From a virus: a DNA stretch of 64,000 nt. Location: the IMG/VR virus record IMGVR_UViG_3300009130_000002; one strand, 5' to 3'. Position 1 is the stretch's first letter. Every line of letters begins with the position of its first letter. Both the position numbers and the translations under genes were made by a program. Shown piece after piece: positions 10,555 through 17,122 of this stretch. Under the pieces are notes generated by a model. It was not told the DNA's origin, did not search any database, and was given only the letters and a program-made list of their open reading frames with translations.

Positions 10555-11076
10555 TCAGCCCCATTTTAACATTTGAGGAACTGCTGCTTGAAGCAGTTCT
10601 TTCATCACAATTAATTCATCTCCAGAAAGTGGAACTTGATGTGATTTGGTATTTCCTGCTGCAGTATAAGAAGCTCGAACCATACACCCATTAATTGTAC
10701 CTTTGGGAGATACAAGGTTAAGGTTCTTTTTAACTAGGCCCTGAGACTCGCTCTTTGCCCCTGGATCGTGCATAATGCTGCATTCTTGACCTGTGTATAG
10801 GGAATGAAGAATCTTCCCCACATCGGTCACTGAGAGCGCTAAAACAATCTTATTTTCCCAGTCATAAACATTTCGATCTTTAGTGCTGGTAATTTCCATG
10901 AAAATTGTTCCTTCTCGGATTTTCCATCCATCACGTAAGGAGCCATTTTCCATAGCTTCATATCCGGTATAATCTTTATTTTTACCAGAATAGAAATGTG
11001 GAGGTTGTAAATTCAATTGAATTGCTCCCCATTTTCCAGCCATCCCTTTGTAAATTGCATATTGTAGAGGTCTCAT
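10555..11076 (-). CDS. Whirly-like ssDNA-binding protein
   Basis: YAIYKG, EGTIFME, YDWENKIVLALSVTDVG, IMHDP and C-terminal PQMLKW align by eye with plant Whirly motifs YSIYKG, YDWSRKQVFSLSVTEIG, FFHDP, PYLLGW. Confidence 0.75.
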   Translation of the reverse strand: MRPLQYAIYKGMAGKWGAIQLNLQPPHFYSGKNKDYTGYEAMENGSLRDGWKIREGTIFMEITSTKDRNVYDWENKIVLALSVTDVGKILHSLYTGQECSIMHDPGAKSESQGLVKKNLNLVSPKGTINGCMVRASYTAAGNTKSHQVPLSGDELIVMKELLQAAVPQMLKWG

Positions 11077-11077
11077 T

Positions 11078-11416
11078 TTATTCCCTTTCTTTTATATTGG
11101 TTTTTTCGTAATCATTAAACCAGTTTGTAACTTCAAGTCCTTGAAGCATGAGTGCAGTTCCAACTGTAGGATCTGTGTAGTATTTCTTTTTGAGGCTATC
11201 TATATCTGGTCCTGTTGTTTGATGACCCTCAATAGCAGCCCCAAGGGAATAACCTAAATTTCCATAAACTACAAGTAATTCTCCTACTGTAGGACGATAT
11301 TCTTGAAATAATCCTAATAATTTTTCTAATAATTCAGAAGATCTTTCAGGATCAAATTGTAATGTTTTTTGTGGATTTTTATCTATTTTTGACATTAAAG
11401 TTCCAGTTGTTCCCAT
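11078..11416 (-). CDS. hypothetical protein
   Basis: 112-aa ORF; probable start at the second Met. Confidence 0.6.
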   Translation of the reverse strand: MGTTGTLMSKIDKNPQKTLQFDPERSSELLEKLLGLFQEYRPTVGELLVVYGNLGYSLGAAIEGHQTTGPDIDSLKKKYYTDPTVGTALMLQGLEVTNWFNDYEKTNIKERE

Positions 11417-11850
11417 CTGGCAGATTTATGATCTAAACCTATTTTAATTGTGTTACTAGCTTCAATTGCTTGACTTGCAGTCTTAAAAACTAAACATCTG
11501 TTTGTTAAGTCTTCTGCCAAACACTCTATAGAGCGGCTTTTAAGTAAAGGATTATCTTCTTCTGCATAAACAGAAGATACTTTATCAATTTCAGCTTTAA
11601 TTCTATTTTTCATCCAAATCCTAGTGTTTCTAGTTCTTTGAATTCTAAGACTTAGATAAAAGTTGCTTTTGATAGTATAAATAGAACCAACTTGATACCA
11701 CTCACCTTTTCTTAAGGTAAAAGAGGACATTCTCGAATGAAAGTCTGGAAATTTCTTTGAAACGAATTCTAGTTTCTGATTACCTGCAGAAGATATAACG
11801 TTATCAGTTAAAACTATAAAATCGTTTTTCTTAGGAATACAAATTTGCAT
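11395..11850 (-). CDS. hypothetical protein
   Basis: 151-aa ORF. Confidence 0.6.
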   Translation of the reverse strand: MQICIPKKNDFIVLTDNVISSAGNQKLEFVSKKFPDFHSRMSSFTLRKGEWYQVGSIYTIKSNFYLSLRIQRTRNTRIWMKNRIKAEIDKVSSVYAEEDNPLLKSRSIECLAEDLTNRCLVFKTASQAIEASNTIKIGLDHKSARWEQLEL

Positions 11851-11890
11851 AATTACAAGTATATACTTTTATGCAATTTTTTTGAAGAAT

Positions 11891-12592
11891 TTATTTTGCT
11901 TTCTTTCTAGACTTTTTTCTAGTGGTTTTTTTCTTTGGTCTAACTCTAGCTTCAGTAATTTGATCACAAAGACCATGAAGTTTCATCTCATTGGGGGTAA
12001 GCCAATTATCTGTTTCTTTCAATAAATTAGTTGTGATTTGAGCTTGAGTAGAATAACGGCTATGACGTAATAAATGATCTAAATCTTTTTGATATTCAAT
12101 GTCTTCTGCCTTACGGCTTGCTACTAATTCTGAATAATTTCCAGCTGTTCCAGTGGAAAATTCATGAATCATTGCTACGGAATTTGGAGACATGATTCTT
12201 TCATCCCCTGCAATGAAAATAGAAGTAGCCATTGAAGCAATTTCACCAATTGCAACTGTTCTAATTGGATTTTTAACAAATTCCATAATATCAATAAATG
12301 CCCATCCGGCATCTGTGTAACCACCAGGACTATTGATTAAAATTTGAATTGTATCTGTAAAATTTGGATTAAAGTGTAAAGTCAAAAGCTTCTTATAAGC
12401 TCTGTCTAGGGTAGCTTTAGTAATGATGCTGTTAATAAAGATAATACCTCTATCTTCTAGCTCTAAATTATCCCTAGCTTGCATGAGCTGAAGGAGTTCC
12501 AAAGGGAATTCCATTTGTTCTTGTTCTTCTTCTTGAACAAAATCACTATTTTCATTTTTTTCTTTTAATTTGGAGCTATGAATTCTAAGCAT
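11891..12592 (-). CDS. clpP: ClpP-like serine protease (S14)
   Basis: INSPGG, catalytic Ser in IASMA, catalytic His in MIHEF; basic C-terminal tail. Confidence 0.9.
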   Translation of the reverse strand: MLRIHSSKLKEKNENSDFVQEEEQEQMEFPLELLQLMQARDNLELEDRGIIFINSIITKATLDRAYKKLLTLHFNPNFTDTIQILINSPGGYTDAGWAFIDIMEFVKNPIRTVAIGEIASMATSIFIAGDERIMSPNSVAMIHEFSTGTAGNYSELVASRKAEDIEYQKDLDHLLRHSRYSTQAQITTNLLKETDNWLTPNEMKLHGLCDQITEARVRPKKKTTRKKSRKKAK

Positions 12593-12608
12593 TGTTTTTC
12601 CTTAATAA

Positions 12609-12887
12609 CTATACATTTGCCTTTGTGGGGTATGAGTCTGAATAAATTATTTTCACTGCACCTTCTTTTCGAACGGTCTTCCAATGAAATTGTGAAATAT
12701 CTTGTTCTTTATTTACGGAATCTCCTGATTTGAAGGTAACACCTTCGCTTAATTGTACAGGAATTTCCATTTCTACCCAACCTTCTTTTTCATCAAAGGA
12801 AATTGGATATTTAACTAATTTTTCGTCTAAAAGAACAGCAATAATCTTTCTTTCAGTTTGTTGTGTTTTTGTCATCGACAACTCCAC
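12609..12887 (-). CDS. hypothetical protein
   Basis: 92-aa ORF. Confidence 0.55.
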   Translation of the reverse strand: MELSMTKTQQTERKIIAVLLDEKLVKYPISFDEKEGWVEMEIPVQLSEGVTFKSGDSVNKEQDISQFHWKTVRKEGAVKIIYSDSYPTKANV

Positions 12888-13006
12888 CTAAGTCTACAAT
12901 AAATTTGTGAAATTGGTCAACCCATGTTTGATCTTTGTGATCAACATTCACAATTGGACTAGGTCCAGAATTTTCTGAATTTTTATCTTTTTTTTCATCT
13001 GGCATA

Positions 13007-13219
13007 TTAATCTCCCATATGTTTAATTTTAAAATAATTTGCTAAATCTTTGATTTTTTGAACAAAACTATCTAATTCGATTTTTTTCTTGTTTAAGTTT
13101 TGATTTTTATAGATGTAGTTTAAATAACTACTAGCTTGCGCAATTGTAAGGCCTAATTCGTCTTTTTCAATATCTTTAATGTTATTTTCTATAATTTTTT
13201 CAAGGTTAGGATCAGTCAT
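13007..13219 (-). CDS. hypothetical protein
   Basis: 70-aa ORF overlapping the desulfurase stop. Confidence 0.55.
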   Translation of the reverse strand: MTDPNLEKIIENNIKDIEKDELGLTIAQASSYLNYIYKNQNLNKKKIELDSFVQKIKDLANYFKIKHMGD

Positions 13220-14294
13220 AAAGTAATTCCTTAATAGTATTAGTTAATATAATTACACCTTTTTCAATTTCTTCCCATGTATTCTCAGGTGACAAAGAGA
13301 TACGAATTGTTGATAAAGCATCTTCTGGTTTTATCTTCATGGCAGACAAGACATGTGAAGGAACAATTTCTTTGGAATTACATGCAGATCCAGCAGATAC
13401 AGCAAGGCCTTTATCGCTTAATTCCATTAGTAATTCTGATGCATCAATTCCTTTAAATCTTATGCTCATTATTCCGGGAAGTCGCCGAATAGTTTTAATA
13501 TTATATTTATAATCTACTTTCAATTTTTTTATATAATGTGTTAATCGTTTTTTAAAGAACTGCTCTTTAAGTATTGCATCTATTTTTCTTTGATTAAGAT
13601 TTAAAGAAGCTAATGTTTTTGCAAATGCATAAGCTAAAGGCACTTGAGGAGTTCCTAAGTAAGGAAGCTCGAATTCAACATCGTTTTTTACCCATAAACA
13701 AGCAATCCCCTTTGGGGCTCCAAATTTGTGACCTGACATAGTTAAAAAGTCACATTGCATTTTTTGGACATCTATAGGTAATTTTCCAGCAGCTTGAACT
13801 GCATCTATATGATAAAGGGCTTTTTTGAGTTTTGGTTTTATAATATCAATTGGTTGAATTACGCCAGTTTCATTATTGACATAAAGAATAGAAAATAACT
13901 TTGTCTTATAAGTTATTTTATCCTGTAATTCTTTAATACAGATTAACCCATTATTTAAAGGGTTAATCATATTGTCTTCTCTGCTATATTTGTAGATAGA
14001 TTTATGTGCTGTATTCATGCAGATAAATGAGTCTGAAGACTGGGGCGCATATCTAAGGGCATTTTTTATTACGAAATAATTAGCTAAAGAGGCACTGCTC
14101 ATCCAGAAAATTTTTCCGTTATGTCCATTTATGTGATCTTTTACTAAATTCTCTGATTCTAGTAGGATTTTTTTCGCTTCAAGGCCTGAAGCATGTATGC
14201 TATTTGGATTAGCATAAGGAGCTTTTTCAATTGCAAGTAATGCAATTGGTTTAATAGGGGTTGTTGCTGCATGATCAAAATAGATCATATTCAA
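13212..14294 (-). CDS. iscS: cysteine desulfurase, IscS/NifS-like
   Basis: YFDHAATTP, NPNSIH, VNNETG, HIDAVQ, PLP-lysine SGHKF, catalytic Cys in SAGSAC, PSHVL..M. Confidence 0.9.
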   Translation of the reverse strand: MNMIYFDHAATTPIKPIALLAIEKAPYANPNSIHASGLEAKKILLESENLVKDHINGHNGKIFWMSSASLANYFVIKNALRYAPQSSDSFICMNTAHKSIYKYSREDNMINPLNNGLICIKELQDKITYKTKLFSILYVNNETGVIQPIDIIKPKLKKALYHIDAVQAAGKLPIDVQKMQCDFLTMSGHKFGAPKGIACLWVKNDVEFELPYLGTPQVPLAYAFAKTLASLNLNQRKIDAILKEQFFKKRLTHYIKKLKVDYKYNIKTIRRLPGIMSIRFKGIDASELLMELSDKGLAVSAGSACNSKEIVPSHVLSAMKIKPEDALSTIRISLSPENTWEEIEKGVIILTNTIKELLYD

Positions 14295-14300
14295 TACCTG

Positions 14301-14888
14301 TTATAAAAAATTCTGCCAATAATCATTTTGAACTCTATCAAAAGGTGTCCCTATATGTGATTTCCATTCTGGAGCAATAGGTTTTTTTAAAAGTTCCCAT
14401 CCAAGTTGATCAAGTGTTTGACTTCCTTTCCTACCATTACAGTATTTGCAGGAAGTTACAACATTTTCCCAATTACTTTTTCCACCTTTACTCTTCGGAT
14501 GTACGTGATCTAAAGTTTTAATACTTGTTTTGCAGTTTGTTCCACAATATTGGCACTTATTATTATCTCTTTTATAAATATTGTGTCGTGAATATTTAAC
14601 TGTTTTAATGATGTCAATTCCTGCATTAGTATCTATTTTGACAACACGAGGTATATAAATGCTAATAGAAGGAGAAGAGACCTTTCCAACATATTTTGAA
14701 GCTTCAAAAGGGAAACTATCTAATATTTTCGAATGCTCTACCCATTCTGTTAAATTTCTTACAGTGTACTGTTCATCTACTACGGTAGCTTTGCCAGTAT
14801 ATAGGGCGCAAATAGCATCTTTTGCTATCCCTACTTTTACAGCTAAAAAATACTTATTTAATATTAAAACTTCGCTACAGAGACTCAT
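14301..14888 (-). CDS. HNH endonuclease (McrA-like, zinc-binding)
   Basis: RHNIYKRDNNKCQYCG, TLDHVHPKSKGG, WENVVTSCKYCNGRKG; N-terminal VLILN motif. Confidence 0.92.
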   Translation of the reverse strand: MSLCSEVLILNKYFLAVKVGIAKDAICALYTGKATVVDEQYTVRNLTEWVEHSKILDSFPFEASKYVGKVSSPSISIYIPRVVKIDTNAGIDIIKTVKYSRHNIYKRDNNKCQYCGTNCKTSIKTLDHVHPKSKGGKSNWENVVTSCKYCNGRKGSQTLDQLGWELLKKPIAPEWKSHIGTPFDRVQNDYWQNFL

Positions 14889-15708
14889 ATCTTAATTTTT
14901 TGTGAAAAAAGTAATCGCTTAATTTATGGTAAGTAACTTCATCAATAGATCTTATATAGGCTAAATATCCTCTTGTTACAGGATCTATTTCTTCTTTATT
15001 TAAGGCAAGAGTGTTTAACCTTGCTCTTATTAGTCTTTTTATTTGTCTTCTAGAAATAGAATCAAGACTTACTCCTGCTACAATTTTAGCATCGTTATTG
15101 CCTCGACCATACCATTTTGTTTTCTTTTTATTGATTGGAAAGCCTGCGCTTTGAATCATTCCTTTGATTAACTCAATTAATCTCCATTCTCTTTCATTTG
15201 CTTTTGTAGATAAGTTTAAGTCGTCCATATATCTTGTATATGTGTAACCATTTCTACTAGCTGCTTGACTTACATAATAATCTACAGAAGTTAGAACAAT
15301 ATTGCATATAATTGGACTGGTTGGAGCCCCAGTTGGAAGCATTCCTCTTCCTTGCCATTGAATAAAACAATAATCTAAATTATTTAGCATTTTTTGTTTA
15401 ATAGCCCCATCTGGGAAATTATTATCAATAGCTTGATGTGCCATAAATGGAGTAATATTTTGATAGCAATTAGAAATATCTACTTTCAATAGATATTTTG
15501 CTCCTAAATGAGGAAGGGCAGCGTCAATAGGACCACTTCCCTTTTTACAAGAGCAAGCCTCATGTAGGGGGAAATGTTCATAAAGTTCTATTAGAGATTT
15601 TTGTTTTTGTTTAAGTTCTAGAGAAGGTTGTTGAATTAATCTTTTCTTAGGAGAGTTCTTTTGACCGATGTAATAAATATCATAATTTTTTTGGATTCTT
15701 TCTTCCAT
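14875..15708 (-). CDS. reverse transcriptase, retron-type
   Basis: KRLIQQPSLELKQKQ (RT0/1), DAALPHLG (region X NAxxH-like), KVDISNCYQNI (motif A), LPTGAPTSP (motif B), YTRYMDD (motif C), IVAGV (VTG-like region Y); 277 aa, RT domain only. Confidence 0.9.
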   Translation of the reverse strand: MEERIQKNYDIYYIGQKNSPKKRLIQQPSLELKQKQKSLIELYEHFPLHEACSCKKGSGPIDAALPHLGAKYLLKVDISNCYQNITPFMAHQAIDNNFPDGAIKQKMLNNLDYCFIQWQGRGMLPTGAPTSPIICNIVLTSVDYYVSQAASRNGYTYTRYMDDLNLSTKANEREWRLIELIKGMIQSAGFPINKKKTKWYGRGNNDAKIVAGVSLDSISRRQIKRLIRARLNTLALNKEEIDPVTRGYLAYIRSIDEVTYHKLSDYFFHKKLRYESL

Positions 15709-16075
15709 TTGATGAATTTCTCTTTTGATAGTTATTATTTCCAGGTCTTTTGCCTTTTTTGAAATTTTGTTTTCTTCTTTTCTTTTTCAAAAAAGGTTTT
15801 CGTTCTTTTTTCTGCATTAATTCTTTTAATGAAGAGCCTGCTTTCGCAGCTTTTAGACCAGTAATTCTTTCGTAACAAATAGCACAAACGTTTATTTCTT
15901 TTGCTATTTCCCAACCTTCGATTTCTTCAACAATGCCTCTCTTTTTACCCTTTCTTATAATTCTCTTATAAGTTTTGGGTCTTCTTTCGACAATAATTGA
16001 ATTTCTAGGCTGTCTAAGGGGAGTATTGGGAGTCCCCCCTTTTGATTTACAATGATGGGCTTGACATTTATACAC
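15680..16075 (-). CDS. small basic Cys/His protein (possible zinc ribbon)
   Basis: GTG start; CQAHHC and CAIC pairs; Lys/Arg-rich C-terminus; overlaps the RT start by 29 nt. Confidence 0.7.
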   Translation of the reverse strand: MYKCQAHHCKSKGGTPNTPLRQPRNSIIVERRPKTYKRIIRKGKKRGIVEEIEGWEIAKEINVCAICYERITGLKAAKAGSSLKELMQKKERKPFLKKKRRKQNFKKGKRPGNNNYQKRNSSNGRKNPKKL

Positions 16076-16603
16076 AATAATGATCTTTCTAAATCTAAAT
16101 GACCCTGAGGGAGGGAAAAAGATTCAAAGTAAATTTAGTTCTAAAAGCAAAGGTGGTCAAGCTTTATTTTTAGAGTGACCCAAAATTTTCTTTGAATTTG
16201 TTCTTTTTCCGTCTGACTCAGTTTGTTTAGAATTGGCCAGGTTAGAATTAATTAATAAATTAATTAATTATTACCCTGTCCCCGGAAAATTAATTAGTTT
16301 TGAAAACAGTTTAAACTGAATTCCTCTACCGGTTAATTTCCGGGAATTAGTCCCGAAGAATTGGTTTCCCAAAATAGGATTTATATCCCAACTATGGGAA
16401 ACCAATTCGGTTCGTAAGCTTACCTAGGTACCGGTACCTCCTCCTGATTAACCCCGATGGGTCTGCAGTAACTGGTAACCATGTCCTTAGGGTCTTAAAG
16501 AACTAAACCAAACTTTACCTAGATCATGAAGTAGGTTTCTTACCTAGTTCATGATCTAGTCTTGTGATCATCAGCTTAGCGAATACGCTTAGCTATTCTT
16601 ATT
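16076..16603 (-). ncRNA. candidate structured ncRNA (possible retron msr-msd)
   Basis: 528-bp gap without an ORF in the track; hairpins at 16354-16414, 16519-16559 and 16573-16594; long-range inverted repeats; upstream of the RT operon. Confidence 0.5.
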
Positions 16604-17122
16604 TTATTTAATTTTGTTCAATCCACAGGTGCATTTTGCTTTTCCGTGCAATCTGCCTACTGCTTTTTGCAGATAAATGTCGCAATTCGATTTGTGAGTT
16701 ACAAAGGGAAGAATTCCTTGTCTATACTCTTTTTGTTCTTTGTTCTTTATTGTAATTTTTTGCTTTAAAGATTTGATATCTTTGGAAGCAATTTTAATAA
16801 CTTCTACTAATTCTTGATTTTTTAATCTTTCATTAGTTAAGAGTTCTCTTAAGCTTATTACTTTTTGTTTATATTGATCAAGCATTGCAAAAGCTGAAGG
16901 GGGTGTGCTTTTCGGTAAACCAAACTCAGCTGCTAACAAACTAGAGGTATATTCCTTGTCATCTGGACTCCATTTCCAAGAATTAACAAATTGAGTTGGA
17001 TTTCTAAATTCATTTTTTTCATAATCAAATGTTGTATAATTACTCATATTTTGGACACCATGTGGAATGTGTTGTTTTTGCTTTTTCTCCTCCGCATTCA
17101 CAGCGAGGATTAAACTTATCAT
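16604..17122 (-). CDS. hypothetical coiled-coil protein with C-terminal Cys/His motif
   Basis: 172-aa ORF (true start probably an internal Met); HKSNC...KCTCG tail. Confidence 0.6.
   Translation of the reverse strand: MISLILAVNAEEKKQKQHIPHGVQNMSNYTTFDYEKNEFRNPTQFVNSWKWSPDDKEYTSSLLAAEFGLPKSTPPSAFAMLDQYKQKVISLRELLTNERLKNQELVEVIKIASKDIKSLKQKITIKNKEQKEYRQGILPFVTHKSNCDIYLQKAVGRLHGKAKCTCGLNKIK

What the first reader, a model, noticed from the sequence alone, without database searches (positions are those of the whole stretch)
16354..16594. Three hairpins upstream of the RT, the longest favouring a minus-strand RNA
Hairpin 1 (16354-16414) has a perfect 14-bp stem GAATTGGTTTCCCA/TGGGAAACCAATTC; on the minus strand its inner part continues through G-U pairs to a 4-nt loop, whereas on the plus strand it needs bulges. 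Hairpin 2 (16519-16559) has a 12-bp perfect stem, one mismatch and 5 more bp. Hairpin 3 spans 16573-16594. Long-range complements could act as a1/a2: 16134-16142 with 16499-16507 (9 bp, flanked by AAAGT/ACTTT), and 16101-16110 with 16485-16494 (9/10). A long near-perfect hairpin is the hallmark of msd. Which stem is msd, and where the branch G is, cannot be fixed by eye.
Basis: partly seen in the sequence, partly recalled or inferred. Interest (0 to 1): 0.75.

Follow-up and report, generated by a model that had tools for sequence, protein, structure and literature searches.

The report
Phage retron-like RNA with hypervariable cassette
The three hairpins are real and belong to a roughly 520-base folded RNA, conserved in uncultured marine phages next to a retron-type reverse transcriptase, in which two conserved RNA modules flank a fast-evolving block of perfect hairpins; it resembles a retron RNA but is much larger and laid out differently.

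Summary
All three hairpins and both long-range complements are in the sequence as described. Ten homologous elements (368-669 nt) from uncultured phage contigs show the hairpins are parts of one RNA, window 16594-16076 on the minus strand. It lies directly upstream of a Zn-ribbon basic protein, a 277-aa retron-type RT and an HNH nuclease.

Hairpin 3 is the conserved 5' motif. Hairpin 2 is a covarying long helix (P2). Hairpin 1 lies in a hypervariable cassette of Watson-Crick-only hairpins. The most conserved part, a 119-nt 3' stem-loop at 16104-16222, lies outside the flagged span.

A long-range helix (CUGAUGA/UCAUCAG type) joins the two ends and covaries. G.U versus A.C counts (39 to 3) fix minus-strand polarity for the 3' domain and the end helix. 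The cassette folds equally well on both strands.

My best reading (0.58) is the cognate template/primer RNA of a phage-borne retron-like RT. Which part is copied, and where the priming G lies, remain unresolved. It is a new variant of a known kind. This scan has noted phage-borne retron-type RTs with unusual upstream RNAs before, in Staphylococcus jumbo phages.

The parts
16573..16594 (-).
   Evidence: Nearly invariant in 10 elements. There is one double change, G-C to A-U, in L027. A related AGCG..CUAAG motif occurs in the distant clade.
16566..16572 (-). 5' strand of the long-range end helix P1 (GAUGAUC; family consensus CUGAUGA). It includes the invariant G at 16569.
   Evidence: It pairs with 16079-16085 in the MFE fold. 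The helix covaries across relatives, with G.U but no A.C cells.
16519..16559 (-).
   Evidence: It is present at the same place in all 10 elements with different sequences. Ten pairs carry double changes (helices 3 and 4).
16233..16511 (-). Hypervariable cassette: a multi-branch domain of Watson-Crick-rich hairpins closed by its own helix in the MFE fold.
   Evidence: MFE tree and analogous closed domains in relatives. Identity drops to 18-64% here while flanks stay at 86-100%. Both strands fold equally well. GC-rich palindromic hexamers are enriched.
16104..16222 (-). Conserved 3' domain: a 119-nt long stem-loop, ACUGAG-UCAGAC-GGR...CCC-UCC-CUCAGG, with an apical hairpin and the invariant GGUCA / UUGACC motifs.
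   Evidence: About 80% DNA identity to L001 and L013 and about 70% to more distant relatives. Helices covary. There are 32 G.U and 3 A.C cells in this domain and its apical hairpin. z = -5.0.
16079..16085 (-). 3' strand of the end helix P1 (GAUCAUU), between the SD-like GAAAG (16085-16089) and the GTG start at 16075. An alternative register is UCAUUUAG at 16095-16102.
   Evidence: In the other clade members the partner UCAUCAG sits directly before AAAGG.
15680..16075 (-). 131-aa basic protein: a four-Cys zinc ribbon with a Lys/Arg-rich tail, overlapping the RT gene by 29 nt.
   Evidence: It is conserved with the RT in both clades; C4, C9, C64 and C67 are invariant. There is no Pfam, PADLOC, NCBIfam or PHROG hit and no PDB fold match.
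14875..15708 (-). 277-aa retron-type reverse transcriptase (YMDD).
   Evidence: RVT_1 2.3e-20, PADLOC RT_II-A 4.9e-45 and RT_I-A 5.7e-40, NCBIfam retron_St85_RT 9.9e-48.
14301..14888 (-). 195-aa HNH nuclease, overlapping the RT gene by 14 nt. It is optional in the family.
   Evidence: HNH 1e-13 and PtuB-like 5.9e-10. It is present in both clades but absent in L096, L098 and the P0016 contig.

Best explanation
The three hairpins are pieces of one about 520-nt structured RNA (window 16594-16076, minus strand). It is the cognate non-coding RNA of a phage-borne retron-type reverse transcriptase module: RNA, Zn-ribbon basic protein, RT, and usually an HNH nuclease.

The RNA has two kinds of parts.
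- Scaffold. This comprises the 5' hairpin H3, the end-joining helix P1 and the 119-nt 3' stem-loop domain. It is conserved in sequence, covaries, and tolerates G.U but not A.C. It therefore works as RNA on the RT-sense strand. I infer that it docks the RT and positions a priming guanosine.
- Cassette. It folds equally well as either strand and diverges far faster than its flanks. I infer that it is, or contains, the reverse-transcribed template, so that both the RNA and its cDNA form hairpins, as in a retron msd.

Shown here: the structure, its conservation, its polarity, the cassette hypervariability and the linkage to the RT. Inferred: reverse transcription of the RNA, the site of priming, and the role of the product. 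Two priming sites are possible. One is the invariant G at 16569 at the inner end of P1 (canonical order). The other is the G at 16104 just 3' of the CUCAG strand of the 3' domain (permuted order). P1 also abuts the ribosome-binding site and start codon of the basic protein gene, so the fold may in addition gate translation.
For: - The gap folds with z = -10.4.
- The same plan is seen in 10 elements upstream of RT homologues of 60-77% identity.
- On alignment A5, 91.9% of cells pair. Twenty-five pairs carry double changes against 12.1 +/- 2.1 in shuffles (0 of 500), and slid controls reach at most 11.
- The 3' domain, apical hairpin and P1 hold 39 G.U and 3 A.C cells.
- The middle region folds equally on both strands.
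- Cassette identity is 18-64% between relatives whose flanks are 86-100% identical. The same pattern holds in a second clade with RT about 43% identical.
- The RT is retron-type and the family is found only in uncultured phage-like contigs.
- There is a precedent for a large retron RNA coupled to a small-protein gene: the roughly 470-nt hyRNA of type VI retrons (bioRxiv 10.1101/2025.10.22.683967).
Against: - There are no transcript or cDNA data.
- Size (368-669 nt) and hairpin number exceed any canonical msr-msd (PMC7736814).
- No Rfam family, including msr, matches even at E up to 10.
- No unpaired conserved G sits next to P1. The candidate G at 16569 is paired in most relatives.
- The RT scores below NCBIfam's retron St85 cutoff and carries AAxPH and VAG in place of NAxxH and VTG.
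- In L289 (RT 32% identical, syntenic phage) the basic-RT-HNH genes have only a 31-nt gap upstream. The nearest structured region there lies 1.1 kb away, behind two genes.
- A strand-symmetric, palindrome-rich cassette would also fit a DNA-level element.
Confidence: 0.58

Rival explanations
1. The element is only a cis-acting leader or riboregulator of the basic-protein/RT operon. It would control translation, processing or stability and would not be reverse transcribed.
For: The 3' strand of P1 sits directly at the SD-like AAAGG/GAAAG. In the window and L001 it lies between the SD and the start codon. The RNA-specific G.U signature is strongest near the 3' end. L289 keeps the protein genes without an adjacent large RNA.
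Against: A leader does not explain a 250-530-nt hypervariable block of Watson-Crick-only hairpins that folds equally as the complement. Nor does it explain conservation of this architecture next to a retron-type RT in two clades. In most members the SD is left unpaired by P1.
Confidence: 0.15
2. The middle cassette is a DNA-level element, for example a replication origin, a recombination or homing hot spot, or a set of protein-binding palindromes. In this reading only the flanks are RNA.
For: Both strands fold with the same energy, and G.U pairs are about half the shuffled expectation. GC-rich palindromic hexamers are enriched, with z of 3-6 in 7 of 10 elements. An AT-rich TTAATTAA tract is present. 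Cassette replacement between near-identical phages resembles recombination. HNH and HNH_3-AP2 homing-type nucleases lie nearby.
Against: The cassette is bracketed by RNA helices that covary across it (P1). It always travels with the RT. The hexamers present in the window's cassette are not avoided elsewhere in the window, which argues against a restriction-related role. No replication genes are adjacent.
Confidence: 0.1
3. The element is an independent phage non-coding RNA, or a run of processing and terminator hairpins, unrelated to the RT. It could be a trailer of an upstream transcription unit. The conserved TTGACC-N17-TAAGTW inside the 3' domain would then be the real promoter of the RT operon.
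For: A sigma-70-like match lies at 16160-16132 on the minus strand, with invariant TTGACC and 17-nt spacing in all 10 elements, including L027 whose local fold differs. In the distant clade tRNA genes lie directly upstream of the structured region.
Against: No intrinsic terminator is found. The putative -10 lies in a helix with double changes, so RNA spanning both arms is under selection. The promoter scan found no more sites than shuffles give (6 against 5.1). Every contig of the RT's own clade and of the L020-L026/L029 clade that reaches upstream has the element next to the RT module; L289, a more remote relative, does not.
Confidence: 0.08
4. One reading: a canonical retron with a1/a2 = 16134-16142 / 16499-16507 (or 16101-16110 / 16485-16494) and one of the three flagged hairpins as msd.
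For: Both complements exist in the window.
Against: No equivalent of the first pair exists in any of nine relatives. The 3' arms of both pairs lie inside the conserved 3' domain, and the second overlaps the D1 helix, which pairs in all ten sequences. These pairings would also leave H3, P2 and the conserved end helix outside the RNA.
Confidence: 0.03

Closest known systems
Retrons of RT clade 1 (types I-A and II-A1; Ec78/Eco7, St85/Sen2; Mestre et al. 2020, PMC7736814; PMC12475279)
   Same: The best HMM matches of the RT are to these types. The non-coding RNA lies upstream on the same strand and its ends are joined by an inverted-repeat helix. A gene sits between the RNA and the RT, as in type II-A. 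An HNH nuclease is adjacent, as in type I-A. A variable hairpin region is flanked by conserved RT-proximal RNA.
   Different: The RNA is 368-669 nt with six or more hairpins, not about 150-250 nt with 1-3 msr hairpins and one msd stem. The conserved module is at the 3' end and the variable module 5' of it. A conserved hairpin lies outside the end helix. There is no PtuA ATPase or NDT effector; a Zn-ribbon basic protein takes that place. The RT has YMDD, AAxPH and VAG variants and scores below family cutoffs. It is carried by large uncultured phages, not bacteria or temperate satellites.
Type VI retron hybrid RNA (Retron-Vpa2 hyRNA, bioRxiv 10.1101/2025.10.22.683967)
   Same: It is a large (about 470 nt) multi-arm structured RNA closed by inverted repeats. 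[quoted passage not shown]
   Different: In type VI the small ORF lies inside the RNA and an HTH partner is essential. Here no conserved small ORF lies inside the element, the protein is a 131-aa Zn-ribbon basic protein downstream of the RNA, there is no HTH, and the RT is closer to II-A/I-A (152 and 135 bits) than to type VI (115 bits).
Diversity-generating retroelements (RT with small basic Avd and a template repeat)
   Same: They are phage-borne, pair a small basic accessory protein with the RT, and have a variable sequence linked to an RT.
   Different: No TR/VR-type repeat of the element occurs in the 64-kb window. The RT carries LPTGAPTSP and matches retron models. The variation is between phages, inside the non-coding element, not in a target gene.
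Retron-type RTs with tandem upstream RNA units in Staphylococcus jumbo phages
   Same: It is a phage-borne retron-type RT preceded by an oversized structured non-coding block. A Staphylococcus phage RT is a 29% tblastn match.
   Different: Those notes describe repeated, complete retron-like units. This element has no internal direct repeats of units and is a single RNA closed by one end helix.

Membership tests
Retron (msr-msd RNA + retron RT) | The RT belongs to the retron clade. | tested here: met
   PADLOC RT_II-A 4.9e-45 over nearly the full length. NCBIfam retron_St85_RT 9.9e-48 at 163 bits, but below the curated cutoff of 235. Group II, DRT and Abi models score far lower.
Retron (msr-msd RNA + retron RT) | Retron-specific RT motifs NAxxH and VTG, with a YxDD active site. 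| tested here: inconclusive
   YMDD is present. Variants AAxPH (A63, A64, P66, H67 invariant in 18 homologues) and IVAG take the places of NAxxH and VTG.
Retron (msr-msd RNA + retron RT) | A structured ncRNA lies next to the RT on the same strand. | tested here: met
   z = -10.4, covariation and RT-sense polarity. It is present in every contig of the RT's own clade and of the L020-L026/L029 clade that reaches upstream. Exception: L289.
Retron (msr-msd RNA + retron RT) | Terminal inverted repeats (a1/a2) pair and enclose the msr and msd structures. | tested here: met
   P1 (CUGAUGA/UCAUCAG type) joins the ends and varies with compensation: L095 CUGACG/CGUUAG, L027 UUAUUG/UAAUAA, and G.U in L099. 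Caveat: hairpin H3 lies 5' of it, outside the helix.
Retron (msr-msd RNA + retron RT) | A conserved branching G lies at the inner end of a1. | tested here: inconclusive
   An invariant G (alignment column 26 = window 16569) sits at the inner end of P1 but pairs with C or U in 8 of 10 sequences. A second candidate is the invariant G at 16104, just 3' of CUCAG.
Retron (msr-msd RNA + retron RT) | One to three short msr hairpins followed by a single long msd stem-loop, about 150-250 nt in all. | tested here: not met
   The elements are 368-669 nt with six or more hairpins. A long stem-loop does lie next to the 3' end strand (16104-16222), but it is the most conserved, G.U-rich part.
Retron (msr-msd RNA + retron RT) | Production of msDNA with a 2'-5' branch. 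| not testable with these tools
   No expression data are available. The phage is uncultured.
Retron type I-A | A PtuA-type ATPase together with a PtuB-type HNH effector. | tested here: not met
   The HNH is present with PtuB-like matches (5.9e-10). No ATPase gene lies in the module. The HNH is missing in three relatives.
Retron type VI (hyRNA) | A small toxin ORF lies inside the RNA, with an HTH partner. | tested here: not met
   There is no conserved small ORF in the element and no HTH gene.
Diversity-generating retroelement | A template repeat with a near-identical variable repeat in a target gene. | tested here: not met
   There is no second copy of any part of the element in the window. 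Only 64 kb of about 192 kb could be searched.
Hammerhead ribozyme (considered because of the conserved CUGAUGA) | An unpaired CUGAUGA / GAAA catalytic core. | tested here: not met
   There is no Rfam hit at E up to 10. CUGAUGA is a helix strand that changes with its partner.

The most novel reading that the evidence does not exclude
This is a circularly permuted, giant retron carried by virulent-type marine phages. The conserved 3' stem-loop is the RT handle, enclosed by its own a1/a2-like helix (CUGAG/CUCAG). The priming G (16104) lies just outside that helix. The RT copies the upstream hypervariable cassette into a 250-530-nt multi-hairpin single-stranded DNA. The rapid diversification of that DNA between near-identical phages reflects an arms race, for example as a decoy or sensor in phage-host or phage-phage conflict.
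Probability: 0.15. Interest if true: 0.88.

Novelty: new variant of a known kind. Interest (0 to 1): 0.66.

Why it matters
Retrons are known as bacterial (and prophage or satellite) anti-phage systems with compact RNAs of about 150-250 nt. Here a retron-type RT is a stable, syntenic component of large uncultured marine phages.

It is paired with an RNA two to three times larger, and that RNA separates cleanly into two parts. One is a conserved, RNA-only scaffold. The other is a hypervariable cassette that is able to fold as either strand.

If the cassette is reverse transcribed, this would be the longest and most modular natural retron template known. It would be a natural example of exchanging the template while keeping the RT-docking parts, which bears on retron-based genome editing. 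It would also show phages using reverse-transcribed DNA for their own ends.

The Zn-ribbon basic partner protein has no known relatives and would define a new accessory or effector class.

Tried and rejected
- Rfam at gathering and at E up to 10 gave no family for the region: no msr, hammerhead, group I/II, HEARO, GOLLD or ROOL.
- blastn of the gap against 50,697 phage records gave no match.
- Exact-pattern scans of IMG/VR with conserved motifs returned only the one known relative plus chance hits.
- DGR: no repeat of the element elsewhere in the window.
- Hammerhead: rejected, because CUGAUGA covaries as a helix strand.
- Hidden small ORF as in type VI: none conserved.
- Tandem array of retron units, a lead from earlier notes: no internal direct repeats.
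- Restriction-site decoy: GC-rich palindromes are enriched in the cassette. But the ones present in the window are not depleted genome-wide, and the two hexamers that are avoided (GAGCTC, CTCGAG) are absent from the window's cassette.
- Thermodynamic strand choice: whole-element energies do not differ between strands.
- Basic protein: AF2 model at pLDDT 70, no PDB fold match.
- Search for RT-less relatives, to test linkage. The upstream 172-aa protein found no homologues by the word-indexed search. Cysteine-desulfurase relatives of 53% identity or more on contigs that extend upstream carry the RT or could not be judged. An alignment scan of IMG/VR gave only unrelated desulfurases.
- No whole genome was available for the window.
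- A full H-type pseudoknot (GGUCA/UGACC plus the apical hairpin) looks sterically impossible with 1-2-nt linkers, so I left it as two alternative pairings.
- No complex prediction was run.

Full report
**Setting**

Genes around the finding run on the minus strand. A 172-aa ORF lies at 16604-17122, followed by a 528-nt ORF-free gap at 16076-16603. Then come a 131-aa basic Cys-containing ORF (15680-16075), a 277-aa RT (14875-15708) and a 195-aa HNH protein (14301-14888). A class-V aminotransferase and ClpP follow.

The RT matches retron models best. PADLOC gives RT_II-A 4.9e-45 and RT_I-A 5.7e-40. NCBIfam gives retron St85 at 163 bits, below its cutoff of 235. Group II, DRT and Abi models score far lower.

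The window looks like part of a large uncultured phage. It holds four tRNA genes by ARAGORN (Rfam finds a fifth tRNA match), gives PHROG hits, and has a relative in IMG/VR. The identical RT protein occurs on a 192-kb contig.

**The observation**

All three hairpins are present as described.
- Hairpin 1 has the perfect 14-bp stem. On the minus strand an inner stem with one G.U closes a 4-nt loop. Energy is -30.1 on minus against -26.4 kcal/mol on plus.
- Hairpin 2 is 12 bp, a mismatch, then 5 bp. It is slightly more stable on the plus strand.
- Hairpin 3 is a weak 4+4-bp hairpin.

The whole gap folds with z = -10.4 on either strand. Both long-range complements exist.

**Relatives**

RT-based searches recovered the same module (basic ORF, RT, usually HNH) in marine metagenome and virus contigs.
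- A close clade has RT 60-77% identical: L001/L013, L016, L018, L030, L027, L015, L093, L095, L098-L101.
- A second clade has RT 35-44% identical: L020-L026 and L029.

Among 185,579 species genomes the only close hit is the same 61.9-kb contig, which is filed under a Pacearchaeota MAG. All other hits are 40% or less in their best segment and are ordinary bacterial retron-like RTs. The HNH is missing in three members.

**Anatomy from comparison**

Ten full-length elements (368-669 nt) share one plan.
1. A nearly invariant 5' hairpin, AGCU-R-AGCG-UWUK-CGCY-A-AGCU.
2. A strand CUGAUGA that pairs with UCAUCAG just upstream of the SD-like AAAGG of the basic ORF (helix P1).
3. A 17-19-bp near-perfect hairpin P2.
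4. A variable multi-branch block of hairpins, closed by its own helix in each MFE fold.
5. A conserved 3' long stem-loop, window 16104-16222. It reads ACUGAG-UCAGAC-GGR...CCC-UCC-CUCAGG, with the invariant GGUCA and GCUUGACC.

With a structure written for these helices, 91.9% of 703 cells pair. Twenty-five pairs carry changes on both sides, against 12.1 +/- 2.1 in shuffles (0 of 500) and at most 11 in slid controls. P1 changes with compensation: CUGACG/CGUUAG in L095, UUAUUG/UAAUAA in L027, and wobble pairs in L099, L093 and L030. In the window and L001 the P1 partner has moved next to the start codon (GAUGAUC/GAUCAUU).

The 3' arms of both candidates lie inside the conserved 3' domain, and the second overlaps its basal helix, which pairs in all ten sequences.

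**Polarity**

Whole-element energies do not distinguish the strands. The mean difference is 0.3 kcal/mol and 6 of 10 favour the RT-sense strand.

In the curated helices of the 3' domain, its apical hairpin and P1 there are 39 G.U cells and only 3 A.C cells. That fits only an RNA of the RT-sense (window minus) strand.

P2 and H3 show 4 G.U against 11 A.C. The middle block folds equally well as its complement, with about 5% G.U pairs either way. But it rests on parts other than hairpin 1.

**Hypervariable cassette**

Between near-identical phages the flanks and the 3' domain stay at 86-100% identity while the middle block falls sharply.
- L016 against L018: 38-64%.
- L093 against L099: 20-64%.
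- Window against L001: 18-42%.

The second clade shows the same order: a conserved 5' hairpin with compensating changes, a 30-50% identical cassette, then an 86-88% identical core next to the SD. There the structured region starts right after tRNA genes.

The cassette is enriched in GC-rich palindromic hexamers, with z of 3-6 in 7 of 10 elements. In this window those hexamers are not avoided elsewhere, so I do not read them as restriction decoys.

**Interpretation**

The RNA structure, its strand and its linkage to a retron-type RT are shown. That it is the RT's template/primer RNA is inferred, from three things:
- the family of the RT;
- the end-joining helix;
- a variable segment whose complement is equally able to fold, as expected for a sequence that must form hairpins both as RNA and as cDNA.

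Retron literature describes terminal inverted repeats, 1-3 msr hairpins and one long msd stem (PMC7736814). It also describes a priming G preceded by A in type I-A (PMC12475279). Type VI retrons show that an RNA of about 470 nt coupled to a small-protein gene exists in the family.

Two priming geometries fit the invariants.
- Canonical: P1 is a1/a2 and the G at 16569 primes. The conserved 3' stem-loop is copied first.
- Permuted: the CUGAG/CUCAG helix plays a1/a2 and the G at 16104, 3' of CUCA, primes. The cassette is then the template.

The G.U-rich, conserved nature of the 3' domain and the hypervariable, strand-neutral nature of the cassette lean towards the second. Nothing here decides between them.

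**Cautions**

- The element fails the compact msr-msd layout.
- It matches no Rfam family.
- It has no clearly unpaired conserved G at P1.
- One remote syntenic relative (L289, RT 32% identical) has the protein genes with only a 31-nt upstream gap. Its nearest structured region lies 1.1 kb upstream.
- A sigma-70-like TTGACC-N17-TAAGTW with invariant spacing lies inside the 3' domain. It could be an internal promoter, although it overlaps helices that covary.

**Literature and earlier notes**

Five searches found no description of this phage family or its RNA. Earlier notes of this scan report retron-type RTs with oversized upstream RNAs in Staphylococcus jumbo phages. I tested their array idea here and found no repeated units.

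**Verdict**

The object is a new, much enlarged and rearranged variant of the retron RNA-RT partnership, carried by uncultured marine phages.

Noticed in passing
window 16132-16160 (minus strand): A sigma-70-like TTGACC-N17-TAAATT lies inside the conserved 3' domain. TTGACC and the 17-nt spacing to TAARTW are invariant in all 10 elements, including L027 whose local fold differs. It could be an internal promoter for the basic-protein/RT operon.
   Followed up: partly
whole window: GAGCTC occurs 0 times against 13.5 expected, and CTCGAG 0 times against 5.1 expected, under a third-order Markov model. This looks like restriction-site avoidance. Some relatives carry exactly these sites inside their cassettes (L027, L098).
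   Followed up: partly
window 15680-16075 (-): The 131-aa protein has four invariant Cys (C4, C9, C64, C67), a long beta-hairpin in the AF2 model and a Lys/Arg-rich tail. It has no family or fold match. The second clade ends in a conserved APVVEVVN-like peptide.
   Followed up: partly
L022 1807-2101; L024 1646-2111; L021 540-613: In the second clade, tRNA genes (Cys, Ile and Ser; Gly in L021) lie directly upstream of the structured region. Its 5' end may therefore be made by tRNA processing.
   Followed up: partly
L289 1165-4672: A remote syntenic phage has basic-RT-HNH preceded by NT5C and a 177-aa membrane-like gene, with only a 31-nt gap. A 250-nt structured gap (z = -5.1) lies 1.1 kb upstream, after an SNase-like gene.
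   Followed up: partly
L182 / L001 (contig NZCX01000010.1): The closest relative, a 61.9-kb phage-like contig, is deposited as part of a Candidatus Pacearchaeota MAG. This is probably a binning artefact, but the host is unknown.
   Followed up: no
L093 3902-4369; L099 2341-2808: An extra HNH_3-AP2 homing-endonuclease-like gene is inserted between the HNH gene and the aminotransferase gene in some relatives.
   Followed up: no
cassettes of the window, L001, L093, L099, L016, L018, L030: A hairpin whose stem contains GGGAAAC:GUUUCCC recurs in these seven of the 10 elements (L095 has a shorter GGGAA:UUCCC version), but in either orientation. This suggests it is recognised as a duplex. A GUGCGCAU...AUGCGCAC hairpin recurs in five relatives but not in the window.
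   Followed up: partly
window 10555-14294 and L289, L290: The RT module sits in a conserved block with a cysteine desulfurase, ClpP, a Whirly-like ssDNA-binding protein and RNase H. Elsewhere the window has a CCA-adding enzyme and a DprA-like protein. RtcB is seen next to the module in L026.
   Followed up: no
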